Both the position numbers and the translations under genes were made by a program. From NCBI GenBank assembly GCA_000002445.1, contig CM000208.1, positions 1,248,001 to 1,312,000 of the forward strand: 64,000 nt of DNA. Reading direction: 5' to 3'. This DNA is from Trypanosoma brucei. Taxonomy: Eukaryota. A model generated the notes under the pieces. It worked only from the letters and a program-made list of their open reading frames with translations. It was not told where the DNA came from and ran no database searches. Every line of letters begins with the position of its first letter. Position 1 is the first letter of the stretch. This document shows positions 24,401 through 51,300 of this stretch, piece after piece.

Positions 24401-26339
24401 TCCCCTACTGGTCGTTATTTCTCTCATCTCGGTCGCACAACGCTAATGGTTTAGAGGCCGATTTGAATGAATGAATGAGGTGAAATCATTTTGCTTTTTT
24501 TTTCTTTTCGTTTTCGATTTCGATTTTGTTTTTTTTATTCATTTAAATTTATATACCCACGTGCGTTTACGCACGATTATACTGACGAGGATTTGTTGTC
24601 GTGTTATATAACCCTTCTTTTTTTTTTCGTGTGTGTGTTACCTCTAGTATTATTATTATTATTCCTGTCATTCCCATTATTATTATTATTGTTGTTATTA
24701 TTATTATTATTTCAAAATTCATGGGATGTGAGACAGTCGGTAGCACTAAATTTCAATATTTGCTTACTTTTATTTTATGTTTATGTTTAACTTTTTGTTT
24801 TTTTAAAAATTTGATAGGGATGTGGTTAAGTTGGTGGTGTGGGGCATCGATTAAATGAAATATGTTGTTGCTTTGTAGATGCTCTGCTCCTTCTACCTTT
24901 CACCTTCCCTTTTCTTTTCTTTTTTCTTTTTTCTTTTTACTATTATTATTATTATTTGGTTGGTTTCACTGTGCGTGTTATTACTTTAAGGTTTTTTTTT
25001 CCTTTTGTCACTGTAATTAAATTCTTGTTAAACAGTTGGGCTACTTAATATTCTTTTCTTTTTTTTTTCTCTCCAACCAAAAAAAGAAAAAAAAACGTTA
25101 TAAATGGCTACAGAAATGGAAGAAGAGGTGTTAGTTGTGCTTTTGTTTTGTAATGTAAGCAACTCCCCCTCCCCCACCTTTCAAAAAAGAAAAAAAAGAA
25201 AAGAAAAAAATATATACAAAAGGGACCGCGTGTTTGTGTTTTTGTGTCTCTTTTTTTTTCTTTTTTTTCTTTTTTGAAAGGTGGGGGAGGGGGAAGGGGG
25301 CGGGGCGGGGAAGGGAAGGGAAATTGAAAATTAAGATGAGGCAAAAGAAGACACTTTTTTTTTTAAAAAATTTCTCGTGTTTAACTTTATAGTTTCTGTT
25401 TGTCATTTGCATGCAGTTGCACATTAATAAATGTATAAATACACACCAATATGCATACGAATGTGAATATCATCTTCATTTCTCTTTTTTCCTTTTCTTT
25501 TCTCTATCTATCTTTTGTTTTTTTTATTTCAAAAAAAAAAAAAAACTACCTTCATTAGTTTGCGTAGAGGACGTGTGTGGCTTACTACCGTCTTCATCGC
25601 CGTACAGGTCAGGCGCACAACGGAAAGAAATTTGAGGTTCGTTACTTTTTTGCTCTTTTTTTTTTTAAAAAAAAAAAGATATTGGTTATATTTGGATAGG
25701 GCGAATATCACAAACTATTTTCGTTTTTGGTTTGCTTTGCTTGAGAAGAACGCACACATTTATTTATATAAATACATATAAATAAATAAAAAAAGGAACG
25801 AAAGAAAGAGTGAAGGAGTAGTGGGAAGGACAGGAGTAAGAAGACGATATATATATATACACGCACACAAAAAACAAAAGCAAAAGCAAAAGAAAAAAAA
25901 GAAAGAAAAAAAAGAAAGAAAGAAACAAGGAAGGGAAATTAGACACTCTCTTCCCCCCAAGGGGTACCCGCTTCATAGATATTATAAAGGAGCGAGAAAC
26001 CAAAGGTTGGAAGTGAAAGAAAGAGGAGGAGGAGTAAAAGGGGAGGGGGAAAAAAAAGAAAGAAAGCGAAGAATACAATCAAACAAACAAAACAAGGCTG
26101 GGAGAAAGTGAAAAATAGCCCGTAATCGTACGACTTACAATATTTGTTCCAGAGGCTCGCACATCTCCACTCCTCGTCCGCTTTGTTGAGTGACAAGGGA
26201 AGGTTAACAAAAACATACCGCTTCAAAAGGAGGGGAGGGAAGGGAAAAGAAAAGGCGACAATATTTAATTTTCCTTCAGAAGGGAGGACACCGTGTCCGG
26301 TAGCGCAGGCCTCTTTTTTTTTTTTTCTCCAAATTTTGT
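18933..26339. other. ORF-free low-complexity tract of about 7.4 kb. It is presumably long UTR or intergenic sequence of the polycistron and is packed with microsatellites.
   Basis: No non-repetitive ORF on either strand. Alternating poly-pyrimidine and poly-purine blocks. Embedded repeats include (TTTTTCA)n at 20266-20360, (GGAAAG)n at 19857-19885, (TA)n at 21409-21440 and 22838-22870, and (TATTAT)n. Confidence 0.7.
26311..26335 (+). promoter_or_regulatory. Poly-T tract upstream of the 1098-aa gene: candidate splice-acceptor polypyrimidine signal.
   Basis: ctctttttttttttttctcc directly upstream of the first ATG at 26355. Confidence 0.4.
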
Positions 26340-35189: not shown

Positions 35190-36137
35190 ATGGGCTCAAT
35201 GGTAATCGGAGGTGACCGCAAGTCAATCTCCTCGGTCGAACCCCTCACGGCCCTTCAATCGAGTAACGCAACACCCAACAAGGTCAATCAGAGGCCAACT
35301 CCCTCACAGAGGGAACAAAAGCAGGAGACGTCAAAGTCACCGCTTGTTATGCGGGCAAATGCAGCTGCTGATGTGCATCAGTGGCCAGATTTTTCGGGAT
35401 TCCGTGAGAGGAACGACATCTTCAACACCAGTAGTTTACCGCGCTCCCCCAATCAGAAGCAAATGGACACTCATGCAGAGAATAACAGTAAAGCAGAACT
35501 TACCTCACCGGCAAGTGAAGGTAGTGGACGTGTGATGGAACGAAGCATGACAGCGGCGGTATCCGCTCGAACATTTAGTGACGACAGAGTGTTAGATGAT
35601 GAATCTGATATTGACATCGTCATTCACATGCCAACACATTACCAGCCGGGCCCACCGGCACAGATCCAGGAGAAGGAGGTCGTGTCATCATCATCCCCTA
35701 GTTGCAACACAGGTGTCGCACTGTCCACCAACGAGGTGCCCTGTAGGGACATTATTAATTCAGCGGAAAACGAGAAAGTTTCCTTTACTGGGGCATGTCA
35801 GCAAAAAGAGATTGCCCATCTAAACGAATTTGTTGCAGTGGTAAAGGAGGCTGTAGTGAAAGCTGTGGTTGAAATTCCCGCATCGCCAAAGCCTCAACGT
35901 CGACCTCGGTTGACCCGGGCACTTCTCAACAGGACCAGGGAAGTTACCTTTAAGCCGTACACCATCGAGGAGTGGCTGGGGGGCGTACAACTACTTGGGG
36001 ACCAACCGGCTGCGGTTAAAATTTGTTCAGTGGAGAATGTTATACTCACGGCCACGATAGCGACAATGAAGGTGGAGGATCAGTTCACCGGAAGCAACGG
36101 ATGCACCGATGCTAGATTGGAGGAGTCCACTAACTGA
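35190..36137 (+). CDS. Hypothetical protein (315 aa). The N-terminal half is Ser/Thr/Pro-rich and disordered; the C-terminal half is structured.
   Basis: ATG start, non-repetitive composition, same strand as neighbours. No motif recognised. Confidence 0.5.
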   Translation: MGSMVIGGDRKSISSVEPLTALQSSNATPNKVNQRPTPSQREQKQETSKSPLVMRANAAADVHQWPDFSGFRERNDIFNTSSLPRSPNQKQMDTHAENNSKAELTSPASEGSGRVMERSMTAAVSARTFSDDRVLDDESDIDIVIHMPTHYQPGPPAQIQEKEVVSSSSPSCNTGVALSTNEVPCRDIINSAENEKVSFTGACQQKEIAHLNEFVAVVKEAVVKAVVEIPASPKPQRRPRLTRALLNRTREVTFKPYTIEEWLGGVQLLGDQPAAVKICSVENVILTATIATMKVEDQFTGSNGCTDARLEESTN

Positions 36138-36225
36138 ATAAATGATACTCTGCTGCTGGAACTTACCAAATGGGATTTCTATTGATACAATCTTAGTTTA
36201 AGGCAGCCCTTTGAATCAAATATTT

Positions 36226-36563
36226 CTGCAGCTTGAAGTTCCCGTGTATTTTCTGAGGGCGAGACATTTATAACGTAAAAGTGGTATTATTTTCAGATAC
36301 ATCGCCTCTTTCCCTCTATCTCTCTTTCTCTGGCGGACGTTTATTTTTGTTTTATACACACCTCCAGTGGTAATTTTTTTTTCTTGTATTCTCTGCGTGC
36401 TGAAGTTCCACTTTGTTCCGTTCCATGTTATAGAGTAGTGTGAACTCAAATGTGTGAGGGAAATAAGAGCTGTCTGATTATCTTCTGTGTGTGTTTGTGT
36501 TTGTTCGGGAAGTTCACGTGCAGAAGTTTATGCGTTACATTATTTTGATACCACTGTATTATT
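36226..36563. repeat. Copy 1 of a dispersed ~340 bp repeat element, located 89 nt after the stop codon of the 35190 gene.
   Basis: About 97% identical to 45729-46085. It begins ctgcagcttgaagttcccgtg. Near its end is cgggaagttcacgtgcagaag, which is an imperfect reverse complement of the start. Confidence 0.8.
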
Positions 36564-38920
36564 GAAATACCTCACAGCACACAACTGTTTCCTCCATTGA
36601 TGTCTTGTTTCCGCAAGCATATTGATGTATGATACACATTTTCCATCTATTGTTCCTTTCCGTGGTCTTGTAGACAGATCAGCAATATCGTTTTTCAATT
36701 CTTTAACGTTCGGACAGCTAACGTTATTGTTATTGTCATTATTACTATTTTCGTTGATATATATTACGTGGGTTAAATTGTTGTAACCCAGGAGTACTCG
36801 TTCTGTGGATTTTGAGTTATTTTTTCCCCCTTTAACCCACTAGGTTTTCTTATTTTCTTCTCGTTTCTCAGATCGCGTCCATGGGTAAGAAAATGTGGCA
36901 AGGGCGGAAAAGGGAAGGGAGAGGGATGCGTAAAAGAAACGGAGAATTTAAACTGAATGTAATGATGGGGGAATCAGTTCTGTAGAAATAAACAAGTGAT
37001 TCATCACTTTTTTTTTCAATTTGTCAGTGCTTGTTTGTCTTTTTTCTTTCCCTACTTTAGTTTTTTTTCTTTTTATTATTATTTTTTGATAGCCCTATAT
37101 CCCACCCTTTCCTTCCAGACCCCCTTTTCCCAGTTGTGGATGTGTTATATATTTTTTTTCCTTTTCTTTTCCATCTTTGTTGGTACGTACTCGTGCACAT
37201 CGTCACATGCTGCGAATGGTCTCTAAAAGCAGAATTTAGAGGGAATTGGTGACGGATTGTGGAGAGACATGTGAGGCGTGTGCATTTTTTTTTATGTCCA
37301 TAACCACGCGCGTGTGTGTTTCATATATCTATTTATGTGTTTAAGTACCAGGGGGGGGAAAGAAGGGCGGGAGAATAAATAAATAAATGAAAAACAGATG
37401 AAAAGAGTGTCAAAGTTGATGAGAGAAATGACAAAAGAGACTCGAATGTGATTTGTTACTTTATCTATTTATTTGCTGTTTATTATTATTTTTTAACTTG
37501 TGTGTGCGTTTGCATCACTAAAACGTGAGCACAAGGGGATGAGTTGTCAGTGGCAGAGCCGTGAAGGAAAGGGGCACTATTTGACGTATATATATATATA
37601 TATATATTCAATCTTACGTTTTATGATAACAATATAAAGTTATTATTACCAATGCTACCATTGTTTTTTCTCCATGTGCCGTCTTAAACCCTTGTGAAAC
37701 GTCTTACAGCTCATGAAAGGGTGGCGGAAGGGAAACGAGAATAAATAACTTTTTCCTCTAACCGTAGTATTTGGTTTGCGCCCCACTACAGCCCCCCTCT
37801 TATACTTTTTCTTACCTTTTTAAAATTTTGTTTCAGCAACGTGGTAGCGCAGGGCACGAAGTGTTGCGTTGTGAACGGTCGCTCATTGTGCTACCAAAAC
37901 GATGGACAGAAGCGTATGAACACAGACGGACAAAAAATAATATATGTATGCATTTGTGTGTTTGTTTATGCCTTGTAGTCTATAAATGTAAAAGCAGTTA
38001 TGCACCTGATTCTGTTCGAAGTTGCTCTATAGGATCAGTGTGAGATGGAGTACTCGTGAGCAATACGGACACTAGTAATAATAATCATAATCACGATAAT
38101 TATGGTCGCAATTTTTATAAATTCTTCTCACTTGTATATATAAATATGTAATTGTTTACTCGCATGTGCAGGAGGACATACTCCTCAGGTATGGAGAGTG
38201 GTGAAAGACTCTGCCGTGGGGCGGGGGCTGCCAAATATTTGCGTGTGTGTATGGGCAGGTGTGCTTTGAGAAAAGGAAATGATGGATTACGGGAAACAGG
38301 TTGAATGATTCAATACCCCAATAACACTTACCGATGCTATTCAAACCTCTTCATCCAAAAGGGAGTGCATATATGATTTCCAACTTATTTTTTTCTCATT
38401 TTTATTCCTATTACCATTACTATGATTATTATTTCAAATCACTATGGGCACTTTCTTTCGGCTCAGTGTCAATTTGCATTTTATTTTTGTTTCTCAGTTT
38501 GTTAAGCAATGCAATACACTCGTTCCTGCGTCGTAGTGATAGTTTACTGCAGTATTCCCTCGTAGCTAAAAGATATGCACCTCCAACTTCATTGAGGGGA
38601 GCGCATGAGGCTAATTTATGTCTGCTCGTGGGAAGTACCCAGCGTAATAGCCCTCTCCATTGTTTGCTGCTCAGCCGTGACTGATGATTTTTTTCTTTCT
38701 CTTACTCTTACTTTTCTTCTTTGTGTTGGTTTCTTGCCATTATAGGTTACAGCCGCTATTTTTTTTTTTTTTTTTGATAAGGCCCTGCAAAGGGGATCGT
38801 AAGCGGAAGGGGTATACGGTGCGATTTGTTTGAGCGGGCCGTTCCTCTGCTTTATATTTCCTTCAGTTACCGTTCTTTTAGTGGAGGGGGGCACCTTAGC
38901 ACGAAGGGGAAATATAGGGG

Positions 38921-40216
38921 ATGCAACACATTAACCATAGATTCAGTTACTTCATAGATAACTACATTCTACTACTTGCAGAGCGGTTTGGTATTCCACT
39001 CAGCACTGAGGCCCCTTCAGAACGCAGCGGCGGTGACGACGTTGACGATATCGATGGGAGCGGTCTCGCGAAATGGGAGCAAGTTGCCGAATGTGTGCGG
39101 GAGGCGTTGAGTCGCCCGAAGACGGCAGAAGAGCGCCAAGCGCTTCTTCACGTCGACGTGAGTATGCTTGATGCAAAGGTTTGCCGCGGGAGGTTGCAAT
39201 ATCTCATATGGCAAGCTGAAAGGTCGGTGGAGGGTGGGGTTGGGGAGAGGATAAAAGGAAAGGAATCACCATCCTTTTCGGTATTTAATATCACACGTGA
39301 CTCACTACGGGACAAAATTCAGGGCATATATGCCTCGGTTCGGGATCATTTACCGAGCACAATCGCCCCTCGACGCAACCACAACGGGAATTCCACCGGG
39401 CCCGCCGTTCAAAGTGGTTCACAGGGAGATAAGGACGTTATGGATTACGATAGTGACGGTGACGGAAGCGAAGGCAGTCTTCATGTCGTTGATGTCGTTT
39501 TGCCAACGGAGGCGGAGGCTCGGCGTAACCGAGTGGTGGCGGAAGCTCGTGATGATCTTCTGTCGAAGATACAAAAAATGCAACTGGATTTCTTTGAGAA
39601 GCATAGACGATGGGTGGACGTTCCCTTCGATTTCGACACTGTTCCTAACGATGGTAGTGGGCCTGAGGAAACATCCCCTCAATCGGACAGCACTGGACTT
39701 TCGAAATCCGCCGCGCGAGAGGCACTGGAAAATGGAACTCCAACTCGGTTACCACCCAGTAGTGAGATGCCAGAGCCCACAATGCGCAACGAACTTGCAG
39801 GGGAATCTGATGGCCCTAAACTTGATCCGATAATGAGTCTTTTCAACGCCCTGCGGGAGGACCGTCGCGTCGGGCGCCCACCACGCCCTTCTCAAATGAG
39901 GGAAGAGGATTACGAAAAGCAATACGTGCATGCCTCAACAATGCCCTCCGCCCCCGCTGGGTTTCCTAATGCATTGGATGGACAAACTATCCGCCGTTTC
40001 AATGGGAGGCCGAGCACTGAGTCCGTGCGAACGCCGGAACCCGAAAAGCCGGCGAATGAGCCTCTGCCCATCAAGAACACCATCAGTAATGGCGGCGCCG
40101 TGACACATGAGGGGCGCGCACCACAGCTACGGGCAAATAGGTGGAATGTTGTGGAGTACGACGGTGAGGATAGCTCTGAAAGTGAGAGTAGCACCGATGT
40201 AGAATGCGTGACGTAG
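38921..40216 (+). CDS. Hypothetical acidic protein (431 aa). The ordered N-terminal helical region is followed by D/E/S-rich disordered segments.
   Basis: ATG start. PolyY tract 38690-38780 upstream. Acidic clusters (DYDSDGDGSEGS, EYDGEDSSESESS). No motif recognised. Confidence 0.5.
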   Translation: MQHINHRFSYFIDNYILLLAERFGIPLSTEAPSERSGGDDVDDIDGSGLAKWEQVAECVREALSRPKTAEERQALLHVDVSMLDAKVCRGRLQYLIWQAERSVEGGVGERIKGKESPSFSVFNITRDSLRDKIQGIYASVRDHLPSTIAPRRNHNGNSTGPAVQSGSQGDKDVMDYDSDGDGSEGSLHVVDVVLPTEAEARRNRVVAEARDDLLSKIQKMQLDFFEKHRRWVDVPFDFDTVPNDGSGPEETSPQSDSTGLSKSAAREALENGTPTRLPPSSEMPEPTMRNELAGESDGPKLDPIMSLFNALREDRRVGRPPRPSQMREEDYEKQYVHASTMPSAPAGFPNALDGQTIRRFNGRPSTESVRTPEPEKPANEPLPIKNTISNGGAVTHEGRAPQLRANRWNVVEYDGEDSSESESSTDVECVT

Positions 40217-42068
40217 GTGAAGGGAAGGTTGTAGGCCTCTTCCCCTAATAGGTCATTACTTTCCGCTCTTATGACTCACCAGGTAACCACTTTTCTTTTT
40301 CTAGGGATGAGGGTCAGTTCACTTCCTCCCTGACTTACTGCGTCTTGCGTGTTAATATACCTGAGCCGTTCGGGATGTCGTCCGTTGGCGCTTTTCCGCC
40401 ACGAGGGCCTCATGCATTCACACACGAACTACGCAGAGATATAGATGGTAGGTGAGTGAGGTAAGGCGGGTCATGCGGCGTGTGGGTTACGAGGCGCATG
40501 GGGAGGGGGGAAGAAAAAAGGAATGCGTATGAAATAAGAGTGGAGTGATGTAGTTAATAAAGTTGTGGAGGCAGGGAGGGTACATCAGCACCCGAACAAT
40601 AGATCTTTCGTGCATGCATGTGGGGGAGTTCCTTCGTATACATCTGCGCTGTCATTATTACTGAGAGGGATGCTTGTTTCATCAAGTGAATTTGAAGTGG
40701 GCCGGCGAATGGACAAACCAGTGGGTTTGTGTGACGGTTAGTGACTTAAACTTAAAACAATTTCACGGTGTGTGCGCACCCTGAGGCTAACATGCGCCGC
40801 GTTGTTCTTCAACAGTTGCACCACTCAGTGTTCCGAAAAGAACGTTTCAGAATCACCCCTATTTTTAATCCATTTCTTTTTCTCAACTTGTGCGAAAAGG
40901 GTATTATTTTTGTCTCATTTACTTTTCCCTAGTGTCCTGTATCGGTGGAGGGGGACTGCTCCTCCAGAACACGTAAAAAATGGGGACTTAGGAATCACGA
41001 AGGATTAGCTCTTGATGGTTAGAGCTACACACTGTAGTATAATATGCTATCGGCCCCTAATAACTATAAGTTATAAATGTGGAGCGCAAGTTCTCGTAAA
41101 GCAGTTCGTCTTAAAAATGCTAGTGGTTGAGTGTGTGTTTGTGTGTTTGTGGGGATAGTCGGATCCACACCAAAGAGAGAAAGTTGTGAAGAGAGGCAGC
41201 AGCATCACTTGTTGGATGGTTATCCCTGTCACCAAACATATCCAACATTCCTCAGAGGCCGAGGTGCGGTGTGCTCACGATTATTGTGGTCTGCAAGCTG
41301 TTTATGTGCGTGAAAGCCCCCACTTTTTTTTTTGTGCTGCCGTAAGCGGTTTGGCCACTTTGGTCGATGTGACACGTGTATGTGTGTGTGCGTGGTGAGC
41401 ACCTCGTTATGGGAAACATCGATGACTTGTATCTGCGTGTGCTGCTGCTTGGGGGTTGTTGGGACACTTTTTTTTCGGAGGTGGCAGCCACAGTGGTGCC
41501 ACGGAGTTGCATTATTCAACTGGCAGCAGTAGCGGGGACGTCGGAGCCGTGTCCCTACACCTTTTCGTTGACCCTTTGCAACCGTTGGTGAAGGCGATGA
41601 GATCCGTAAAGCCCTCTGTTTAGGGGTTTCTTGTTTTTATATGCATTGCGCGTACGATAGTTTTAGTTTTACGACCATTCTCTGACCCGCAGATGCGTAA
41701 ATGGGGCCAGCATACTGAGAGAACACCGAAGGGTCACTGTTTTAACGCGGTGTGACTTTCCCTCAAGCTTCCTTATTCTGCATTGTGTTATCCTCGTCAA
41801 TAATTCGGAAACGCTCTCAATTATTTTGCTTTTTGCTTTGTTGGCACCGCCGTCGCCACCTGTTGGGGACGCACCGGTGACTACTTTTCATTCGTGCAGG
41901 GGAGGGGACTGGAAGGCGTAGGGACATCGTGGCAGTTGCTTAACTGTAGTTCAGAAGGGTCGCACTCAGGAAGGCGCCAGAAGTGTGAAAGGTGTTGGAA
42001 CTGCGGGACCGTTTACGAGAGGTAGAGATCCCTGAGGTGTTCCTTTTCCCACATTTCAGTTAGGAGAT

Positions 42069-43571
42069 ATGAACCCGTCCTATTTGAATCAGATATTGAG
42101 TTACCCCCAACGCGAATCGCTAATTTCGGAGTGCCCCGCGCTTGCACTCCTCTGCTATCAGGAATTAGTGGCTGCCTTCCGCAAAGGGAAACGCATTGCT
42201 GATCCGCTGTCTTTGAGGGATGATGTCACAGTCCTACTTTCCATTGGATCGTTGCATGAACTGACGGACCGGATTTTCTCAGCTGCACCGCATGAATCCG
42301 CTTTGCCTCCTCTCTGGTGTACGCTTCGGAAGGCTCTTGAGTGTGCCTGGGACCCCAGAGGTGATGGTGAGCGACAATGTGAACTAACGATGGTGGGTGG
42401 GAAACTCCGATTTTACAAGAAAAAATGTGATAGGATGCCGCTTGCACAGTCATCAATGCGGAACGCACTTAATATGAGTAGAACACGCATTCGAGAAGTT
42501 ATTGCCTGTGCCCTATCGGGTTCACTGGAGCCCCTTGGAGGGAGACGTAACGAGCCTATCGCTGCATTACTTCAGTTTTCCCGCCTGATCCCACCACCGT
42601 CGGAAGAGCGGGTCGTCACCTCTGAAGGATTGGCATTTTGCATGCAGCCCCTTCAACAACAGTGGTGGACATTAGTATCTGTTGTGTTAGATCGCGCACT
42701 GGCCATAATGTCGGGTAAAGGAGTCTCACGCGCCACTCTTTGGCAGCTTCTAGCTGTTCTGTTTGCACTTAACACAAGTGATTATGTTTACTTGTTTCCT
42801 TCAAAGGATGATGACCTTGAGGCCTTTCAACTGCTGGCGCGCCTCTCGGAGGTCGGGTTGGTTTACCCCCTTATTTGTAACGGAGAGAAATGCTTTGTGC
42901 TTTCTCCCCACTTCCACCACGCCATATGTTGGAGTTCTACACCATCGCTTTGCACAGCGGCATTGCTGGACGACACGAGGGGTCCATCGTCTCGTCTACG
43001 GCGGGAGGATGAAGATACTATCATCACTGAAACAAATTTTCGACTATACGCATACACGAAAAATCCTGACATGCTGCGCATTCTTGATCAATTTGCGGTA
43101 AAGGAAGTGGATGTGGTGGGAATGGTTGTATGCTACAGGGTGACACGAGCATCATTTGCAAGTGCACTAGCGAAAGGCATAGGCGCAAACCATATATTGC
43201 AATTTCTTACGGTGAAGGCACATCCTTCTATGATCAAGCAGAGCAATAGTGAGGCTGGTGACCCGTCGTGCCCGGTTCTCCCCGCTGCTTCTGTGGGATT
43301 CGGTAATACATCTGAATATCGTCAGGGAAATATTATACCACAATCCTTTTGTGATCAACTGTTCACGTGGGAGAGGGAATGCCGAAGACTAATTTTTCGT
43401 CACGATGTGGTGCTGTTGAAAAATATCGGGAAAGAGCAGATGGAAATAATCTTAAACTGTCTTTCAAATAGTGGGGAACAGCACGCCGTGGTGCATCGCG
43501 AGAGCGGTACTTTGGCCATTGAACAGGAGGTTTACACGCGTGTACTGTCCAATTTCATTACTCCGGATTAA
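42069..43571 (+). CDS. Possible TFIIH subunit p52 (Tfb2/GTF2H4-like); otherwise a hypothetical protein.
   Basis: 500 aa. The N-terminus YLNQILSYPQRESLISECPALALLCYQEL resembles the Tfb2 N-terminus ([27 protein letters not shown]). Size matches p52. The functional call is tentative. Confidence 0.45.
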   Translation: MNPSYLNQILSYPQRESLISECPALALLCYQELVAAFRKGKRIADPLSLRDDVTVLLSIGSLHELTDRIFSAAPHESALPPLWCTLRKALECAWDPRGDGERQCELTMVGGKLRFYKKKCDRMPLAQSSMRNALNMSRTRIREVIACALSGSLEPLGGRRNEPIAALLQFSRLIPPPSEERVVTSEGLAFCMQPLQQQWWTLVSVVLDRALAIMSGKGVSRATLWQLLAVLFALNTSDYVYLFPSKDDDLEAFQLLARLSEVGLVYPLICNGEKCFVLSPHFHHAICWSSTPSLCTAALLDDTRGPSSRLRREDEDTIITETNFRLYAYTKNPDMLRILDQFAVKEVDVVGMVVCYRVTRASFASALAKGIGANHILQFLTVKAHPSMIKQSNSEAGDPSCPVLPAASVGFGNTSEYRQGNIIPQSFCDQLFTWERECRRLIFRHDVVLLKNIGKEQMEIILNCLSNSGEQHAVVHRESGTLAIEQEVYTRVLSNFITPD

Positions 43572-44056
43572 TGACATCAGAGGTAACGACATGAGTGCTG
43601 CTCTTGGAGTTCGTTTCTACCTGTTTATTCTTGGTGTGTGAGTGAGCGCACGCGCATTGGTTCCCTTACTACAGTGGTCGGGTCGCGGTTGGGGGCGTGG
43701 TGGCCGCTTGGGTGCCGATTCCGTTTCCTTTTTTCCCCCCTCCTCCGCGGTGCCAGTAACGCGAGGGATCGGCTTGGTCTCCATCTGCGGTGTGTATTAT
43801 TCGGTAAAAAAAAAAATAATAATTCGACCTTAGCCTTTTTCCAGTGGAAGGGGTAAAGAAGATGTGTCTGTCATGTGTGTTTGCTCGTTTTTGAACGCTG
43901 TTGCTTATGCTTGAATTGATGTATACCTCATTTCCCCCCGTATTGTAATTGTTCATTATTAACAACAACAATAAGGCTCAGTGAAGGTGTAACGGCTGGT
44001 TCTGGGCTGGCCTGCGGCGTCGATCCCTTCCATTTGACCATTTTAGCGACTCGGCG

Positions 44057-45400
44057 ATGCGTAGGGGACCACAATGGTTTATCCAGAGCCGGTCACGTGA
44101 ACGGTTTCACCAGTTATGGCCATGGGCACTTGGGGGCGTATGTGCCACTTTGTACTTCTTCAATCGCGAGCCTTTTGAAGAAATGGCTGGTACTGTGGTA
44201 ACTAAGATACGGAAACCCCTACTCAAGACGATGGAATGGATTGAACTGCACGATGTGGACCCGGAGACGATGGCGCTGGAACTTCCTCCTGACGTGCTTT
44301 TTGGCCCCTTGGAGTTCTCAAAGCAGATGCGATTCCTAATGGCTGCGCTACGGGCTGATAATGAACTTGCCGATGGGTATCTTGCTCGTGTGCTGGTGGA
44401 TCATATGGATCTTTCTCTCGATCCACCATTGCTCACGGAAAAGGAAATTCTCGAGACAGGTGGGAGGCAGTTGCTTGACTTTGCCATTGAGGATTTTTTG
44501 GGTGCAGGTTCTAGGAAGACTCGGAAGCATATATTCTTTAGGCCAGACCAATTTCTTCGTCTTATAAACTTTTTAGCCGTTTATCCGTCATTGACAAACT
44601 ACTTTGTGAAGGAACGCAACGGTGTGGACATGATTTTTCGCGCGCTACGGCACAGCAGCGACGAATTCGCACGTGTTCTGGCGCTTCGCAGCCTATGTCT
44701 ATTCTGCTTTACGCAGCGCGAAGACGGCGACGTGGAGCGGCGAATAATGCAGGCGAATGGTGTTGAGCAAATTGTGAAAGCTTATAAGCAAAGTACGGGT
44801 GACCCAACCGACACAAGGTACATCACCTTACTCGTCTCTTCCCTGTTGCGCCACTATCCTCTAGAGGGCGGAAAAGAATTTGTTGAGGCTGATGGCATTC
44901 AGGCAGCTGTTGACAACTTGAATATTGCTCGGTACAAGGGCATACCTCAACATGTGCGAGTTCTTCATGATGCGAAACGACTCCCACCAGCGGCCATTGG
45001 CGGGAGGTCCATCAATTCGCGCATTGAGGATGCTGACTTTATTCCTATAGCGATGGGTCTTCTTGATGCCTTTCCTGAATTCTACGAAGCTTCTAGTGAG
45101 ATATTACTACTACTACGAAGTATTGTACCGTCGTGTGCGAGTCCGTTTAACCTTTTGGAGTATCGTGCTATGCCTATTTTATCAAAATATTATGTGCGAT
45201 GGCAGAATGACACCGTTTTTCACACGGATGGTACGCTCCAGTTGTTGGTGGAACTGTTTAAACTAATGTTAGAGGACCCGACGTGCCAGCGCTGTTTTGA
45301 CCCGAGTGTGGCGTCATATGAGTTGCAGGAGTGTCTGCGGACCGCACGCGCGGCAATTGAAGCGGAATCATCCAAACCTGTGGTGCAACCCACACTTTAG
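44057..45400 (+). CDS. Hypothetical protein (447 aa), mostly alpha-helical and possibly an ARM/HEAT-like solenoid.
   Basis: ATG at 44057. An alternative in-frame ATG at 44183 (MAGTVV...) exists. Several candidate polyY-AG sites lie at 43690-43980. No motif recognised. Confidence 0.6.
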   Translation: MRRGPQWFIQSRSRERFHQLWPWALGGVCATLYFFNREPFEEMAGTVVTKIRKPLLKTMEWIELHDVDPETMALELPPDVLFGPLEFSKQMRFLMAALRADNELADGYLARVLVDHMDLSLDPPLLTEKEILETGGRQLLDFAIEDFLGAGSRKTRKHIFFRPDQFLRLINFLAVYPSLTNYFVKERNGVDMIFRALRHSSDEFARVLALRSLCLFCFTQREDGDVERRIMQANGVEQIVKAYKQSTGDPTDTRYITLLVSSLLRHYPLEGGKEFVEADGIQAAVDNLNIARYKGIPQHVRVLHDAKRLPPAAIGGRSINSRIEDADFIPIAMGLLDAFPEFYEASSEILLLLRSIVPSCASPFNLLEYRAMPILSKYYVRWQNDTVFHTDGTLQLLVELFKLMLEDPTCQRCFDPSVASYELQECLRTARAAIEAESSKPVVQPTL

Positions 45401-45728
45401 TTTGTGCAGAAATTGATTTGTGTTTTGCGTCTTTTTCCGTTTGGATAAGGGAATATGAAAAGTGGAAGAGGGCGCAACGGACGGTGAAATTGTTAGTCAC
45501 CGTGTTAATGTGAGGTGACCATCCTCCCTTTCCTTTTATTTTTTGTATTTTTTTTTTTCGTCATCATCTCTTTTGAGCAACCTGACACGACAGATGTGTG
45601 TGTGTGGGAACACGAACAGGAGCGAAACAAAAGGAATAATAGAGGAATAAAAATATGATGAATTGCATTTATTCCATGATAGTCAACAACAGACAAGATA
45701 ATTCTTAAACGTCTTGATTTCGATATTC

Positions 45729-46085
45729 CTGCATCTTGAAGTTCCCGTGTATTTTCTGAGGGCGAGACATTTATAACGTAAAAGTGGTATTATTTTCAGA
45801 TACATCGCCTCTTTCCCTCTATCTCTCTCTTTCTCTGGCGGACGTTTATTTTTGTTTTATACACACCTCCAGTGGTAATTTGTTTTTCTTGTATTCTCTG
45901 CGTGCTGAAGTTCCACTTTGTTCCGTTCCATGTTATAGAGTAGTGTGAACTCAAATGTGTGAGGGAAATAAGAGCTGTCTGATTATCTTCTGTGTGTGTT
46001 TGTGTGTTTGTGTGTTTGTGTTTGTTCGGGAAGTTCACGTGCAGAAGTGTATGCGTTACATTATTTTGATACCACTGTATTATTT
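45729..46085. repeat. Copy 2 of the dispersed ~340 bp repeat element, located about 330 nt after the stop codon of the 44057 gene.
   Basis: Near-identical to 36226-36563. Differences: an expansion of the (TGTGTTTG) motif, one extra CT unit and two point changes. Confidence 0.8.
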
Positions 46086-46291
46086 AGGTATTACCACCTT
46101 ATGTGTTTTATTGGTTTATCTTTTTTTTTTCATATTTAGTGGCGAAAGGGGGGTTTGCTTCGTGAGTTTGTGCTCTTGTGTTGAGAAAGGGATCAAACAA
46201 TCACCGAATTGGTCGAAGCTAAGTGACCTGAATCGTTTCTAAGTAAGAGAATATTTTTTAATTAACCGATAGATATTCAAAGGAATCGATT

Positions 46292-47104
46292 ATGAGCAGT
46301 TCTGAACACGATAGTCGTGTTGCGTACTGTAAGGAGCATAATGTGCATCATCTCTTTGAGCTCATGGCTTCCAGGTTGCTAGTTGAGCGCCCCGAGAACC
46401 CTTTTGAATACCTTCGGGAGTTGCTGGTCACGGTGGAGAACTCCAAGAAGCAAACAGCACATGATCCCACAATGCTTCCGTCGTCGCCATTGGGGGCGAA
46501 GGACAAGCTGACGAAGATCACAATAGGCACATTTGGTATTGAGAATGCCGGCAAAACAACGATCATTTCTGCTTTGGGAGGAAATATTGAGAAGAATCCT
46601 ATGCCTACCGTCGGATTCACTCCTACAAGATTCCAGACGGATAGGTGCGATCTTTGCATCTTCGACCTTGGCGGAGGCGCCAACTTTCGAGGAATTTGGG
46701 TTCACTATTTCCACGACTGTCATGGTTTCATGTTCGTCATCGACTCTGCAGCGGATGATGCGGTTGTGGAGGAATCCCTCAATGCACTTCGCACTGTAGC
46801 GCAGCACAAGCATGTGCGTGGCAAGCCGGTGCTGGTGCTGGCTAACAAAAAGGACTTAAAGAGTAGCAGAGGCGTTGAGATTGTTTCTGAAGGCCTCTTG
46901 GAGGAACTCTTTGGGGATGTTTCTCTCTACCATCTAGTGCCTTCATGTGGCATTGAGGAGGATCCTGAACTGGAGAAGGGCGTTGATTGGCTATTGACGA
47001 AGATACAGAAGGAATATACTCACATTGATAAGTTGGTGGAAAGTCAGACGCTGGAGGTAAAAATGGAGGCGGAACAAAAGAGGAAGAAGTTGCTTGAAGA
47101 ATAG
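46292..47104 (+). CDS. ARF-like small GTPase (ARL) with an N-terminal RIIa/DPY-30-like dimerisation-docking helix and a C-terminal coiled-coil tail.
   Basis: G1 GIENAGKTT; switch I PTVGFT; G3 FDLGGGANFRGIW (non-canonical, against the DVGGQ consensus); G4 NKKD; G5 SCG. The N-terminal VAYCKEHNVHHLFELMASRLLVERPENPFEYLRELL matches the RIIa/DPY-30 pattern. Confidence 0.85.
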   Translation: MSSSEHDSRVAYCKEHNVHHLFELMASRLLVERPENPFEYLRELLVTVENSKKQTAHDPTMLPSSPLGAKDKLTKITIGTFGIENAGKTTIISALGGNIEKNPMPTVGFTPTRFQTDRCDLCIFDLGGGANFRGIWVHYFHDCHGFMFVIDSAADDAVVEESLNALRTVAQHKHVRGKPVLVLANKKDLKSSRGVEIVSEGLLEELFGDVSLYHLVPSCGIEEDPELEKGVDWLLTKIQKEYTHIDKLVESQTLEVKMEAEQKRKKLLEE

Positions 47105-48356
47105 AGAAACAGCTGATGTGTTTTACATTGCCCGTAAGGGAGAAGGCGGGCACTGTTAATCATAGAGGACACATGCATGGGGAAGTTGCTGCTCGTGTGA
47201 GTAACATATTGACAGTGACATTAGAAGCGAGTGCGGGCATTTATTGTTCTTCGGTGCTAAACTCTAGTGAGTACGTTTCGGTGAGTTGTGAACTGATGTG
47301 GGCGTTCCCTTGTGTTGTGATACTGCATTTCTCCGCCTTTCGACTTGTTTGTATGAAAACTACATTTGTAGTTGCCACTATCACACTATTGTGCGTCGAC
47401 GTGCCAACACTTTTTCTTTGTCATCTGTTTTGCTTTTTTTTTTCGTTTCTCTTCAAACATCCTTTTCGGTGTTCGTGCACCGCTCATCCGATCGGTGGGG
47501 GTCTCGTTTTGTGCGATCTAATTTTCGATTAGCGGAGGTAGTGTTTCCTTTCCTTCCCCATAGGTGGATGGTTATCATTCCATTTCATCTTCTCTATTTT
47601 TAGTATTTTGATTATCCCTTAATGCCACTGCATGTGTTAATTCACTGTTTGCTGCCCACCGTTCTGCCACTTTTTTTTCCTTTCTCCTTCTTTTACTTTT
47701 TTAAACATTGTCTGTACTTACCCTTTGTCTCTCGGTAGGTGTAAAGAAGGGGTACTCTACACCAACTTTTTGTTAGCCTCCTTCTTAGTTTAAACTAGGG
47801 GTTCAGAATCCTTATTTTCCCCCTTCCCTCCCCCCCAAAAAAGGGAAAACAAAGCAAATCAAAGGAAGGGAGAAGGGGTTACGGAGTTAGATATATAGAT
47901 AGGGGGGAAAGTGAAGGTGTGTCCTCCTGCCGAGAAGTAAAGCAAAAAAGACAGGAAAGGTAGAATAGAAGTGGGAAAGGAAAGGAGGGCGCATCCCCGC
48001 CACTTAGCATTACACATTGTTCTATTTCACCCTTTTTTATTTCGAAATTTTTGTTGGTGTCGTTGTTATTGTTATTGTTATAATTTTTTTTTGTATTCTC
48101 TTTGTGTTATTGTGGCCCGCGTGCTTGTGTGGTGGGAGAGTGACATACGTACATTCAAGTTTTTGGTCGGCTCATTTCTTAGTTGGAGCGAGAGGACGTA
48201 CTTGCGCGCACGCACACACAAACAAACAAAAGGGTTGACAGACACAAAGCAACTCCATACATTGGTGTGGTGGAGGTTCGGGAGTATTTTATATAGCACT
48301 CCCCTACACTGTTATTTGCCTTTTCCTCCTTTTATCTCGCGTGTGGCTGAAATACG

Positions 48357-51300
48357 ATGACTTTAATTCCTCAAAACCCCTACCGAATGAGTTTCAGCAG
48401 ATGTAATAATGAGCGAAAAGCTTCAATTCCCTTGCAACCGACCAACACGAATGGGGGGATCAGTGCTGATAACACTGGTGTAGATCTTAAAGCTCATCGT
48501 GTGACTCCATTCACCACCACATTTGGACGGAGACACACCCTATATGGGGAGACAGAGATACGCGAGGCAAAGGAAACTTTAGCAAAGTTATTTGTGCCAG
48601 TGGCAAAGTTGGGAATGTACCGGCTGCGAAGAAGTAGACTGCACAAAAAGAATTCAGAGCTTCGGAGCTACACTATCGACTCCATTGTTCAGGCATACCG
48701 GAGTTCCAACTCAATAATCTCCACTTGGCCTATGGACGTGCTAACCTTGCTTGCTGAGGGAGCACAGTATCACTACTTAGAAGATGGCGAGGTGATTGTA
48801 TATGCGAGGGAATGGTACTTGTCGACTGGAATTATTGTTGTTCTCTTCGGTGAGGTGCAGGAGACGCTACCAAAATCTGAGAAAAACTTCACACCGAATA
48901 AGACGTCTGGTAACATACGGCACCCTGAGCGTTCCGTTTTATGCGAACAAACCGTTCTCTGTAGGGATTTTGCACCTTCGCGTCTAAAGGCGCACGGTTA
49001 TGCCGATGTAGCAGTAATACCCGCTCGCTGGGTTTGGGATGCCATCAATTACACCTCAATGGAGCCATTTGCTGAGGGGATGCTAGACTCTTTGAGAATG
49101 ACTGTTGCACCATTATGTGAAAGCGTTTTGGAACGAACGTACTTTCCCACCGCGTTGACGCTTCGTCGCAGTTGGCTTTGGTCTTTCTTCAGTGCAGGGG
49201 AGCGAATTCGTCTCGCACGCCTCATGGAGGTGAAGGTGTTTTGCGCTGGCGACACCCTGTTTGGTGAAGGGGACCGTAATCCGTACGTGTACATCATTCG
49301 CCGCGGTGCCGTTCGGGTTGTGGTGTGCAAGGAGCCCATTTTGGACTTTGGCCCCGGCGCAGCCTTCGGCGAGGTGAGTGTCATTTTTGATGAACCACGC
49401 TGCTGCCATGCGATTGCCACGTGTTTATGTGAAGTTTACTGTTTGCACCGTCGTCACATTATGAAGCGACTCAGGAAGAAGGCGCACGTGTGTGATAGCG
49501 TGATTGGAACAGCCCTGAGAAGGCGTGAGCAGTGGTTGGAGGACGCCAAGACAAGGCACGTGATGAGCCTTACTGTTTTGTTAGGAGGCGTCCCCTGTCT
49601 CAGTCAGGCGACAGAAAAGGTCCGAGCGGCCATAGCGGAGAAGGCCAAAACAGTGGTGCTGCCCCCGCGACAAGTGTTATTCAAAAAGGGAACCTTGTGC
49701 GATCATCTTTTCATTGTGGGGCGGGGAACCCTCTTAATGGAAGGTGCTGAAGATACTGTAGCGACTCGTACGTCAACGGGGTTTGTGGGTGAGTTGTTTC
49801 TCCATCCGCATTTGTGGCCCACAGACGTTACCTCCCTCACATCTGTTGATGGCTGGATGTTCCACGTTGATGTAGTGAAGGATGCGCTTGATAGCATAAA
49901 CGCAAGGGAACAGGCAGTTGACATATGCCGTCAGGGGATTGAACTTTATCGCGCTCAGTACGGGCCGGAAAGTGTTATGGAGCCAACCCCTGCACCCCGA
50001 AAGTTGGGTCCCGCGCGTAAAGGCACAACTGCCTTTTCTTCGGGGGCGAAGCAGTCAAATTCACTCCGTCAGAAGGGGCAACCCAGAAGTCCGTCACTTC
50101 CCAGCACGCCAAGGCTTGTAGCGGTAGCGAAGACTACTCCTGTGAAGGAGGAGCCACTGGAGAAGTTTGATTGGAACGCGTATGCAATCGAGGATAAGGT
50201 AGCGCTGCCCTCAGCGGACACGGATGAAAGTGATAAGCGCAGTGAACGGCAGCAGACCGAGCATGTCATTGAGGCTGAACTCGGTGGGCAGGCGGGGAGT
50301 TTGTTGTCCGCTGGTGTAGGGCTAGGAATTAGTGCTATTGACTGCGACTTTTCTGATGAGGTGGATGAGATGCGGCAAATGTTACTTGAGCAGGCCCTTC
50401 TAATACCTTCAAACAGACTACTGTTCTTCCTCAGGCAAATAAATCGCAGCAAGGTTACATTGGTGGTGGACGACGGTGCCGTTGTGACGGGAGAGTGTTC
50501 GTTAGAGACAACCGTGGGTGACGATCTGACGTTCCCCCAGTACGTCTTACCGCCCTCTGTTGTGTACACTTTAGACAATGTGAACACTTATAATGTGGAT
50601 GGCGCGCCATTTAACGGGGAGGACGTGCTAAACGACACCAACCGACAGTTAGCAGACGGAGTCGGTACGACTGCGCACCGACGAGCACGCACTCCCGAAG
50701 TTGCTCTTGTGACACCAGATTTTATGTCAACGTTTCGCTCCACCGATGAAATGGCAAATACAACCTTAAAGGGGCAACAGTTTGGCGGCCTTTCATTGTT
50801 CCTGCGGTCCGGTCGTCCATGTTCGGGGCTCAGTGGTAAGCACCATCTACAGCATTCATCGTCCCTTTATGGGACGCTGCGGCGTAGGAGTCTTAGCGGG
50901 GTGAGCAGAAATTATACTCCTTATCCCCAAACTCCTTTTACGCCTGATGTACACGGTTCGACACAGTACAGTTTCTCTAACATATACACAAGACTCAATA
51001 GCGTGGATTACACACAACAAGCGAAAATCACAGCTTCTGCACTCCAGTCTGCTCTTGATCGTTTTGTGAAACTGGACGACCAAAATTACTTTCAACAAGT
51101 GGTGCGTGTCTGCTTACCAACAGAGGCAGAGCAGCAGTTGATTACGGAAGAGGTTGGTAGTGGTGGTAAGAGTAGCTGTGACTTGATACTACTGCTGATG
51201 CACGTTAGGAAGTGTGAGGGCCTCCAGCTAAGTGACGATATGCAGTACCCTATTGTGAAGGTTTATACCAAGACGCGCGTCCTCATCAGAACGCCAATTA

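What the first reader, a model, noticed from the sequence alone, without database searches (positions are those of the whole stretch)
36226..36563. Dispersed ~340 bp near-identical repeat in two 3' intergenic regions (copy 1)
A 338-bp element downstream of the 35190 gene recurs at 45729-46085, downstream of the 44057 gene. Identity is about 97%, with only microsatellite-length differences. The flanking sequences are unrelated, so it is a discrete element. Its start (ctgcagcttgaagttcccgtg) and a segment near its end (cgggaagttcacgtgcagaag) are imperfect inverted repeats, and an internal gctgaagttcc motif recurs. It could be a small non-autonomous mobile element (MITE- or SIDER-like), a duplicated 3' UTR regulatory module, or an ncRNA locus.
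Basis: seen in the sequence. Interest (0 to 1): 0.6.

Follow-up and report, generated by a model that had tools for sequence, protein, structure and literature searches.

The report
Two-copy intergenic direct repeat, T. brucei
A 350-bp stretch of non-coding DNA occurs twice, 9.5 kb apart, on Trypanosoma brucei chromosome 10, and it looks like an ordinary low-copy intergenic repeat kept alike by gene conversion, not a jumping element or an RNA gene.

Summary
Window 36220-36563 (344 bp) and 45723-46084 (362 bp) are direct repeats. They differ by 5 substitutions and two microsatellite indels, and their flanks are unrelated.

The window is T. b. brucei TREU927 chromosome 10. The copies bracket a 9.2-kb block of three ancestral genes: Tb927.10.5200, TFIIH-p52 (Tb927.10.5210) and Tb927.10.5220. 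Copy 2 sits in the published 630-nt 3' UTR of Tb927.10.5220. Copy 1 starts 83 nt after the stop codon of a T. brucei-specific 315-aa gene.

I found no third copy in the window or in outgroup loci. There is no poly(A) tail, no target-site duplication, no strictly terminal inverted repeat, no Pr77 signature, no Rfam match and no unusual RNA folding.

Comparison with T. b. gambiense shows four sites where both copies agree within a genome but differ between genomes. That pattern means gene conversion. Between strains the repeat diverges about three times faster than other non-coding DNA, so there is no sign of constraint.

The pair meets every criterion of the low-copy intergenic repeats already catalogued in trypanosomatids (773 in T. 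brucei, PMC4028189). Short-read assemblies break or mis-join at it.

A genome-wide copy count could not be run. Interest is low.

The parts
36220..36563 (+). Repeat copy 1 (344 bp). It starts 83 nt after the stop codon of the 315-aa gene. TREU927 chr10 coordinates are about 1,285,115-1,285,458.
   Evidence: coordinate offset from Tb927.10.5200 = Tb927_10_v5:1287816-1289111
45723..46084 (+). Repeat copy 2 (362 bp). It begins at nt 323 of the 630-nt 3' UTR of Tb927.10.5220 and runs about 54 nt past the inferred poly(A) site.
   Evidence: UTR arithmetic
36223..36244 (+). Left arm of the imperfect inverted repeat (TTCTGCAGCTTGAAGTTCCCG), at the very left end of the unit. The equivalent in copy 2 is 45726-45747.
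   Evidence: 18/21 with 1 gap; I3
36506..36525 (+). Right arm of the inverted repeat (CGGGAAGTTCACGTGCAGAA), ending 38 nt inside the right boundary. The equivalent in copy 2 is 46027-46046. It also reads as a direct repeat of GAAGTTC[C/A]CGTG.
36303..36331 (+). Polypyrimidine (CT-rich) tract inside the repeat, carrying the 2-nt indel. The equivalent in copy 2 is about 45806-45836.
36486..36505 (+). (TGTGTGTT)n / (TGTTTG)n microsatellite inside the repeat. It is 16 nt longer in copy 2 (about 45989-46026).
35190..36137 (+). 315-aa gene upstream of copy 1. It is 100% identical to TREU927 XP_822764.1 / Tb10.70.1930 and is annotated 'T. brucei spp.-specific protein' in T. b. gambiense. No homologue was detected outside Trypanozoon.
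36564..45722 (+). 9.16-kb block between the two copies. It holds Tb927.10.5200 (38921-40216), TFIIH p52 Tb927.10.5210 (42069-43571) and Tb927.10.5220 (44057-45400). Gene order relative to Arl13 is ancestral.
46292..47104 (+). TbArl13 (Tb927.10.5230), downstream of copy 2. The published 152-nt 5' UTR puts its splice acceptor AG at 46138-46139, 54 nt beyond the repeat.
   Evidence: sequence

Best explanation
The two copies are a passive low-copy intergenic repeat, a two-member 'repeat alignment group' in the sense of Ubeda et al. 2014. About 350 bp of non-coding DNA was duplicated once within a single polycistronic unit of T. brucei chromosome 10, before the brucei and gambiense lineages split. 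The two copies now lie in direct orientation in the 3' regions of Tb10.70.1930 (presumably Tb927.10.5190) and Tb927.10.5220.

The copies stay nearly identical because they still exchange sequence by intrachromosomal gene conversion, not because selection holds the sequence. As 344-362 bp of about 98% identity, 9.5 kb apart and in direct orientation, they are also a substrate for homologous recombination. Such recombination would delete or circularise the three-gene block between them.

Shown:
- the duplication and its sharp ends;
- presence at the same two sites in T. b. gambiense;
- the concerted-evolution site pattern;
- the location of copy 2 in an annotated 3' UTR.

Inferred:
- the single duplication event (probably templated repair or ectopic copying);
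- that copy 1 is transcribed as 3' UTR;
- that recombination between the copies occurs in vivo.
For: 1. There are exactly two copies in 64 kb, with unrelated flanks.
2. The adjacent genes are unrelated and there are no pseudogene relics.
3. Both copies are present with identical boundaries in T. b. gambiense DAL972 (L010).
4. In the four-way alignment, 4 sites (columns 109, 203, 255, 257) are shared by both paralogues within a genome but differ between genomes. Only 1 site is paralogue-specific, and 11 are singletons, most of them near the edges. This is the signature of gene conversion.
5. Orthologous divergence of the repeat is 3.1-3.3%, against 0.97% for other non-coding DNA and 0.58% for coding DNA. 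So there is no purifying selection on the sequence.
6. Tfb2, the 447-aa gene and Arl13 lie in the same order in T. vivax, T. cruzi and Leishmania. The bracketed block is therefore ancestral, not an insertion.
7. The pair meets all criteria used to catalogue such repeats: intergenic, same chromosome, 0.2-2.5 kb, at least 85% identity. Two-member groups and spacings of 1-100 kb are typical of that catalogue. It lists 773 such repeats in T. brucei, with PCR-confirmed rearrangements at selected ones (PMC4028189).
8. A recombinant-type single hybrid copy, with the left flank of copy 1 and the right flank of copy 2, exists in a T. b. equiperdum assembly (L001).
Against: - The genome-wide copy number is unknown. 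No tool here holds the T. brucei genome, and the attempt to use an ORF inside the repeat as a search handle failed.
- The near-terminal inverted repeat is better than chance when tested as first 40 nt against last 80 nt (0/2000 shuffles). That window was chosen after seeing the data.
- The L001 'deletion' may be an assembly mis-join and not biology. If L001 is the IVM-t1 assembly (my recollection; not shown by any tool), it rests mainly on 300-bp MiSeq reads plus about 2.4x PacBio coverage, and the repeat is longer than a read.
- Lack of constraint between two strains does not exclude a function based on composition or position.
Confidence: 0.6

Rival explanations
1. It is a duplicated cis-acting 3' UTR module, a stability, translation or 3'-end-formation cassette, that selection keeps alike and that gives the 315-aa gene and Tb927.10.5220 a shared post-transcriptional behaviour.
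For: - Copy 2 begins at nt 323 of the 630-nt 3' UTR of Tb927.10.5220, and the inferred poly(A) site (about 46030) lies inside it.
- Copy 1 begins 83 nt after a stop codon.
- Tb927.10.5220 mRNA is procyclic-enriched (BS/PC ratio 0.119).
- The 315-aa gene is T. brucei-specific, so it could have acquired its 3' end by copying.
- The unit contains a polypyrimidine tract and a long-range stem in both minimum-energy folds.
Against: - The repeat diverges about three times faster between strains than other non-coding DNA.
- Folding is not better than shuffles (z = -1.45 to -1.7).
- The GAAGTTCMC motif occurs nowhere else in the 64 kb.
- The UA(U)6 motifs that could explain procyclic enrichment lie in the unique part of the UTR at 45537-45558, outside the repeat (read).
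- No expression data for the 315-aa gene could be retrieved.
Confidence: 0.15
2. It is a non-autonomous mobile element, MITE-like with sub-terminal inverted repeats or an unrecognised short retroposon, of which the window happens to hold two recent copies.
For: - The unit is discrete, with sharp ends and high identity.
- The left arm of an 18/21 inverted repeat sits at the very left end.
- Copy 2 is flanked by ATTTCGATATT / ATTTAGGTATT, a 9/11 match.
Against: - The TSD-like match at copy 2 arises in 9% of random non-coding position pairs under the same search, and copy 1 has only 5-mers.
- The right arm of the inverted repeat is 38 nt internal, and the terminal 25 nt against 25 nt score below the shuffle mean.
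- There is no poly(A). The longest A run is 4.
- There is no similarity to Pr77.
- There is no third copy, even a diverged one, in the window or related loci.
- Both copies are fixed at the same sites in two subspecies.
- From my own knowledge, trypanosomatid genomes are described as carrying retroelements only. Known short T. brucei elements are about 570 bp with a 5' signature, a poly(dA) tail and 12-bp TSDs.
Confidence: 0.1
3. It is a duplicated gene for a small non-coding RNA, for example a snoRNA-like or regulatory RNA.
For: It is non-coding, transcribed as part of a polycistron and duplicated. Several CUGA boxes are visible in the sequence.
Against: - No Rfam family matches at gathering score in the whole window, or at E <= 1 in 36100-36700.
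- There are no tRNA-like genes.
- Folding is not significant on either strand.
- It carries microsatellite indels and diverges fast between strains.
Confidence: 0.03
4. One of the copies is an assembly artefact in the window's genome.
For: Short-read assemblies do fail here. T. equiperdum OVI contigs end at both copies, and L001 has a single hybrid copy.
Against: The independently assembled T. b. gambiense DAL972 chromosome has both copies at the same places, with copy-specific variants. The two copies in the window also differ from each other at 5 sites and 2 indels.
Confidence: 0.01

Closest known systems
Low-copy intergenic repeated sequences ('repeat alignment groups') of trypanosomatids (Ubeda et al. 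2014, PLoS Biol, PMC4028189)
   Same: It is non-coding, on one chromosome, 0.2-2.5 kb long and at least 85% identical. It forms a two-member group in direct orientation, 9.5 kb apart, bracketing a few genes. The paper reports 773 such direct or inverted repeats in T. brucei and PCR-confirmed rearrangements at selected ones.
   Different: I could not check whether this particular pair is in their T. brucei list. In Leishmania about two thirds of these repeats derive from SIDERs and drive selectable extrachromosomal amplification. This unit shows no SIDER features, and that paper says no amplification has been described in T. brucei.
TbSIDER1/TSIDER1 and TbSIDER2 (short degenerate ingi-clade retroposons; Bringaud et al. 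2011, PMC3820030)
   Same: It is a short, non-coding, low-copy element in the T. brucei genome located between genes.
   Different: SIDERs are about 570 bp. They carry the 76-79-bp Pr77 signature at the 5' end, a poly(dA) tail and vestigial 12-bp TSDs, and are 10-30% diverged from their consensus. This unit is 344-362 bp, lacks all three hallmarks, and its copies are about 98% identical.
MITEs (miniature inverted-repeat transposable elements)
   Same: The size is similar, it is AT-rich and non-coding, and an imperfect inverted repeat lies near both ends.
   Different: The inverted repeat is not terminal on the right, there is no TSD beyond chance, and only two copies were seen. As far as I know (own knowledge), no DNA transposon has been described in T. 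brucei that could mobilise it.
Low-copy repeats mediating non-allelic homologous recombination and interlocus gene conversion (general eukaryotic phenomenon)
   Same: Direct repeats of a few hundred bp with high identity, a concerted-evolution site pattern, and an apparent deletion product with one hybrid copy.
   Different: The deletion product is seen only in one draft assembly and may be an in-silico mis-join. In vivo recombination was not shown here.

Membership tests
Low-copy intergenic repeat (RAG sensu Ubeda et al. 2014) | Non-coding sequence repeated on the same chromosome, 200-2500 bp long, at least 85% identical | tested here: met
   344 and 362 bp, 93.9% identity with gaps or 98.5% without, both between ORFs on one contig. 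Criteria.
Low-copy intergenic repeat (RAG sensu Ubeda et al. 2014) | Low copy number, typically confined to one chromosome | tested here: inconclusive
   Two copies in 64 kb and none in the related loci. The whole genome could not be searched.
Low-copy intergenic repeat (RAG sensu Ubeda et al. 2014) | Recombination between the copies (rearrangement or gene conversion) | tested here: met
   The gene-conversion site pattern is 4 genome-specific sites against 1 paralogue-specific site. The hybrid single copy in L001 is consistent but may be an assembly error.
ingi-clade SIDER/RIME retroposon | 76-79-bp Pr77 signature at the 5' end | tested here: not met
   Local alignment to L1Tc Pr77 scores 16 (+) and 12 (-), against shuffle means of about 14. 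Caveat: the Pr77 sequence was recalled from memory, and only its first 15 nt are verified (primer in PMC4748587).
ingi-clade SIDER/RIME retroposon | Poly(dA) stretch at the 3' end | tested here: not met
   The unit ends ...CCACTGTATTATT. The longest A run in either copy is 4, and the reverse strand ends ...GCAGAAATAT.
ingi-clade SIDER/RIME retroposon | 12-bp target-site duplication | tested here: not met
   The best match for copy 1 is 5 nt. For copy 2 it is 11 nt with 2 mismatches, which occurs in 9% of random non-coding pairs.
MITE | Terminal inverted repeats | tested here: not met
   The left arm is terminal, but the right arm ends 38 nt inside the unit. The first 25 nt against the last 25 nt score 6, against a shuffle mean of 8.3.
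MITE | Many dispersed copies and a related autonomous DNA transposon | not testable with these tools
   No T. brucei genome collection is available. The ORF-handle searches found nothing.
Functional 3' UTR cis-element | Lies within a mapped 3' UTR | tested here: met
   For copy 2: mRNA 2055 nt minus 5' UTR 81 nt minus CDS 1344 nt gives a 3' UTR of 630 nt, placing the poly(A) site at about 46030. The Arl13 5' UTR of 152 nt maps exactly to an AG at 46138-9, which validates the coordinates. For copy 1 this is only inferred.
Functional 3' UTR cis-element | Sequence or structure conserved above the neutral background | tested here: not met
   Divergence between the window and T. b. gambiense is 3.1-3.3%, against 0.97% for other non-coding DNA. 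Folding z is -1.45 to -1.7.
Structured ncRNA gene | Match to a curated RNA family, or significant structure | tested here: not met
   Rfam gathering search of the whole window gave 0 hits. The E <= 1 search of 36100-36700 gave 0 hits. There are no tRNAs.

The most novel reading that the evidence does not exclude
The unit is a member of a so far unrecognised MITE-like, DNA-type non-autonomous element family in T. brucei. It would be bounded by the sub-terminal inverted repeat TTCTGCAG...CTGCAGAA, in a genome generally described as having no DNA transposons. The two copies seen here would be recent insertions into 3' regions.
Probability: 0.05. Interest if true: 0.65.

Novelty: new member of a known kind. 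Interest (0 to 1): 0.15.

Why it matters
The practical points are these:

1. The pair is a ready-made substrate for deleting or circularising a block that contains the TFIIH p52 gene. It is also a clean small example of interlocus gene conversion in T. brucei.
2. It is longer than a short read, and it demonstrably breaks or mis-joins draft assemblies. The OVI contigs end at both copies, and one T. b. equiperdum assembly appears to have lost three genes. Apparent 'gene losses' here in pangenome comparisons should be distrusted.
3. About 300 nt of the Tb927.10.5220 3' UTR, and probably that of the neighbouring T. brucei-specific gene, are not unique. This matters for read mapping, UTR reporter libraries and RNAi or primer design.

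None of this changes how trypanosome biology is understood.

Tried and rejected
- Genome-wide copy count through ORFs inside the repeat. The exact look-up of the 77-aa minus-strand ORF and a homologue search with the 80-aa ORF found nothing. No gene caller had called these ORFs, so the trick gives no information.
- Exact look-ups of the window's 447-aa, 315-aa, 431-aa and Tfb2 proteins, and of the TREU927 protein P0063, failed. TREU927 contigs are not in the index.
- Larger degenerate segmental duplication: rejected. The flanks are unrelated. The 315-aa and 447-aa proteins and the downstream genes are unrelated, and no pseudogene traces were found by permissive tblastn.
- The block between the copies as an insertion, with the L001 arrangement as ancestral: rejected by synteny in T. 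vivax, T. cruzi and Leishmania.
- Homology in outgroup intergenic regions: none by nhmmer.
- Internal sub-repeats. Several 14-19-nt matches appear, but first half against second half is no better than shuffles (242/1000).
- UTR data for the 315-aa gene (Tb927.10.5190 / Tb10.70.1930). I looked in six papers' supplements and found only an unlabelled count and value for the gene in one table, with no UTR length.
- A search for the accession GCA_003543875 in the literature returned nothing.

Full report
**The observation**

The two stretches were read directly and aligned. Window 36220-36563 (344 bp) and 45723-46084 (362 bp) are direct copies on the + strand. The pair was recovered independently by the repeat finder (families D10, D15, D16), by blastn with 7-nt words and by nhmmer (E = 7e-124 and 2e-132).

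The copies differ by 5 substitutions in 344 aligned positions and by two indel events. One is a 2-nt indel in a CT-rich run. The other is a 16-nt indel in a (TGTGTGTT)n microsatellite.

Sequence on either side is unrelated. Local alignment of 60, 120 or 300 nt of left or right flank is no better than dinucleotide shuffles (p = 0.31-0.93). Homology begins about 6 nt further left than stated.

No third copy, even a diverged one, exists in the 64-kb window.

**Where this is**

The 270-aa Arf-family gene at 46292-47104 is identical to genes in T. b. gambiense DAL972 chromosome 10 and in two T. equiperdum assemblies. The 315-aa protein encoded at 35190-36137 is 100% identical to T. b. brucei TREU927 XP_822764.1 / Tb10.70.1930.

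Gene identities come from published tables:
- The Arf-like gene is TbArl13, Tb927.10.5230 (PMC6140319).
- The Tfb2-domain gene (42069-43571) is TFIIH p52, Tb927.10.5210.
- The 447-aa gene (44057-45400, 1344 nt) is Tb927.10.5220, a 'possible component of cytochrome oxidase complex' (PMC4845500 supplements).
- The 431-aa gene (38921-40216) is Tb927.10.5200, at Tb927_10_v5:1287816-1289111 (PMC3973304 supplement).

That last coordinate fixes the window as TREU927 chr10, about 1,248,896-1,312,895. All large ORFs are on the + strand, so both copies lie inside one polycistronic unit and are transcribed in the same sense.

**Position relative to mRNAs**

The published 'filtered mRNA length' of Tb927.10.5220 is 2055 nt and its 5' UTR is 81 nt. 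With a 1344-nt CDS, the 3' UTR is 630 nt. The poly(A) site then falls at about 46030 in the window. Copy 2 therefore begins at nt 323 of this UTR and contains the poly(A) site. Its last 54 nt or so lie in the spacer before the Arl13 splice site.

The same tables give Arl13 a 152-nt 5' UTR. That lands exactly on the AG at 46138-46139, which follows a T-rich tract. This match validates the coordinate transfer.

Copy 1 begins 83 nt after the stop codon of the 315-aa gene. It is therefore very probably in that gene's 3' UTR, but I could not retrieve UTR data for that gene.

**Not part of a larger duplication, and the bracketed block is ancestral**

The proteins encoded next to the two copies are unrelated to each other. 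Permissive tblastn finds no gene relics in the spacers.

In T. vivax (L006), T. cruzi (L007/L008) and L. donovani (L009), Tfb2, the orthologue of the 447-aa gene, Arl13 and the 1700-aa cNMP-binding gene lie in the same order as in the window. The orthologue of the 431-aa gene lies a little further upstream in T. vivax and T. cruzi but was not detected in the L. donovani locus. So the two copies bracket three ancestral neighbours of Arl13, and the 9.2-kb block is not an insertion.

The 315-aa gene has no detectable homologue outside the T. brucei group. It is annotated 'T. brucei spp.-specific protein' in DAL972.

**Tests for a mobile element**

The literature defines the short T. brucei retroposons (TbSIDER1, TbSIDER2, RIME) by four features (PMC3820030):
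- a 76-79-bp 5' signature (Pr77);
- a 3' poly(dA) stretch;
- 12-bp target-site duplications;
- for TbSIDER1, a consensus of about 570 bp with a median 16% divergence.

The unit has none of these. The longest A run is 4 nt, and neither strand ends in A or T runs. Alignment to Pr77 is at background level. That Pr77 sequence was recalled from memory, and only its first 15 nt were verified from a primer in PMC4748587.

The best flanking direct repeat is 5 nt for copy 1 and 11 nt with two mismatches for copy 2. The copy 2 match turns up in 9% of random non-coding position pairs under the same search.

Its left arm is at the very left end, but its right arm ends 38 nt inside the right boundary. The strictly terminal 25 nt do not pair (score 6, against a shuffle mean of 8.3). 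As 'any inverted repeat within 344 nt' it is unremarkable (76/500 shuffles). Only the post-hoc test of the first 40 nt against the last 80 nt is significant (0/2000).

The same two sites are equally a direct repeat, GAAGTTC[C/A]CGTG, because CACGTG and GAAnTTC are near-palindromes. The motif GAAGTTCMC occurs nowhere else in the window.

**Tests for an RNA gene or structured element**

No Rfam family matches at gathering score in the whole window, or at E <= 1 in 36100-36700. There are no tRNAs.

Minimum free energies give z = -1.71 (copy 1, +), -1.45 (copy 2, +) and -1.55 (copy 1, -). None stands out. The inverted repeat closes a long-range stem in both + strand folds.

**Comparison between strains**

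T. b. gambiense DAL972 (L010) has both copies at the same two places with the same boundaries. The four-way alignment shows three kinds of variable site:
- 4 sites (columns 109, 203, 255, 257) where both copies of one genome share a base and both copies of the other genome share a different base;
- 1 site that is copy-specific and shared by orthologues (column 101);
- 11 singletons, most of them near the two ends.

If the copies had evolved independently since a duplication that predates the split, the first pattern would need parallel identical mutations. Four such sites, clustered in the centre, mean that sequence has been exchanged between the copies since the lineages separated. That is gene conversion.

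Orthologous divergence of the repeat is 3.3% (copy 1, over the 246 aligned positions that locus L002 covers) and 3.1% (copy 2). Other non-coding DNA in the same 20 kb diverges by 0.97% and coding DNA by 0.58%. The repeat is therefore not under detectable purifying selection. Pooling of mutations from two copies, or recombination-associated mutation, would explain the excess.

**Behaviour in assemblies**

Locus L001 comes from assembly GCA_003543875.1 and is named T. brucei equiperdum in NCBI. There, the 315-aa gene is followed 652 nt later by Arl13. A single hybrid copy carries the left flank of copy 1 and the right flank of copy 2, and the 9.5 kb in between is absent. The junction is inside a contig; the only N run in L001 is at 19356-19455.

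This is exactly the product expected from recombination between the copies. However, I believe this is the IVM-t1 assembly, and that identification is not verified by a tool. The IVM-t1 assembly was built from 300-bp MiSeq reads with ABySS plus about 64 Mb of PacBio reads, then merged and ordered on TREU927 (PMC6395869). A 344-362-bp repeat exceeds the read length, so a wrong path through the repeat is at least as likely as a real, necessarily heterozygous, deletion. That a deletion would have to be heterozygous assumes TFIIH p52 is essential. I cannot tell the two apart.

In the T. equiperdum OVI assembly, one contig ends 38 nt into copy 1 (L011) and another starts inside copy 2 (L003). This is typical assembly failure at a repeat.

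**What it is**

Ubeda et al. 2014 (PMC4028189) screened trypanosomatid chromosomes for non-coding sequences of 0.2-2.5 kb repeated on the same chromosome at 85% identity or more. Most families were low-copy; 242 of 507 groups in L. major have just two members. Spacings were 1-100 kb. They reported 773 such direct or inverted repeats in T. brucei, with PCR and sequencing evidence for rearrangement at selected ones.

The present pair meets every one of those criteria. I could not check whether it is in their list.

My best explanation (confidence 0.6) is therefore a passive low-copy intergenic repeat. It was created by one duplication of about 350 bp within the polycistron before the brucei and gambiense lineages split. 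It is carried in two 3' regions and homogenised by ongoing gene conversion. It could mediate deletion or circularisation of the block holding Tb927.10.5200, 5210 and 5220.

The duplication mechanism is inferred, not shown. Templated repair or ectopic copying is the likeliest route, possibly linked to the birth of the T. brucei-specific gene upstream of copy 1.

**Rivals**

- A selected 3' UTR module (0.15). This is compatible with the location of copy 2 in a UTR and with the procyclic-enriched expression of Tb927.10.5220. It is not supported by conservation or structure. UA(U)6 motifs lie in the unique part of that UTR (45537-45558). From my own knowledge these are the RBP10 recognition motif, and they could account for the regulation.
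- A mobile element (0.1). It fails the structural tests above, but it cannot be fully excluded without a genome-wide count.
- An ncRNA gene (0.03) and an assembly artefact in the reference (0.01). Both are very unlikely.

**Limits**

None of the searchable collections contains the T. brucei genome. My attempt to use ORFs inside the repeat as handles failed. The copy number outside this window is therefore unknown, and it is the single most informative missing fact.

**Verdict**

It is an ordinary member of an already catalogued class of low-copy intergenic repeats. It gives a tidy demonstration of gene conversion and a practical warning for assemblies. Interest is about 0.15.

Noticed in passing
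L001 9431-9792 (GCA_003543875.1, T. b. equiperdum); corresponds to window 36220...46084: This assembly has a single hybrid repeat copy and lacks the 9.5-kb block holding Tb927.10.5200, TFIIH p52 and Tb927.10.5220. It is either a heterozygous deletion by recombination between the repeats or a mis-join in a mostly short-read assembly.
   Followed up: partly
L011 end (11031-11068) and L003 start (3-122), T. equiperdum OVI contigs: Contigs of the OVI assembly terminate at both copies of the repeat, 38 nt into copy 1 and inside the microsatellite of copy 2. This shows the repeat defeats short-read assembly.
   Followed up: yes
L001 19356-20813: A 100-N gap is followed by 1.36 kb that repeats window 48053-49413, which the locus had already covered. 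This looks like a scaffolding overlap artefact in that assembly.
   Followed up: no
window 40217-42068: T. cruzi has a cation-efflux gene and a 381-aa gene between the orthologue of Tb927.10.5200 and Tfb2, and T. vivax also has the cation-efflux gene there. T. brucei has only a 1.85-kb ORF-free spacer here. The spacer corresponds to the unusually long (1169-nt) 5' UTR of TFIIH p52 and shows the highest divergence from the T. b. gambiense sequence of any spacer measured (1.95%).
   Followed up: partly
window 35190-36137: The 315-aa gene upstream of copy 1 has no detectable homologue outside the T. brucei group. It is annotated 'T. brucei spp.-specific protein' in one genome and 'kinesin associated protein' in others. 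No Pfam domain was found.
   Followed up: partly
window 45537-45558: Two UA(U)n motifs, UA(U)6 and UA(U)11, lie in the unique proximal part of the Tb927.10.5220 3' UTR. From memory, these match the RBP10 recognition motif, which would fit the procyclic-enriched expression of this mRNA (BS/PC ratio 0.119).
   Followed up: no
window 25164-25207 / 25251-25294; also 63293-63351 and 63766-63811: There is a near-perfect 44-nt inverted repeat (98% complementary, 43-nt loop) of the form poly(T/C)...GAAAGGTGGGGGAGGGGGA. Similar T-rich/G-rich motifs recur near 63.3 and 63.8 kb.
   Followed up: no
window 18933-26339 and 60000-64000: These are long, very AT-rich stretches (GC 27-34% over 20-26 kb and 60-64 kb) that are ORF-poor and full of microsatellites and low-complexity repeats, inside an otherwise gene-dense + strand polycistron.
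   Followed up: no
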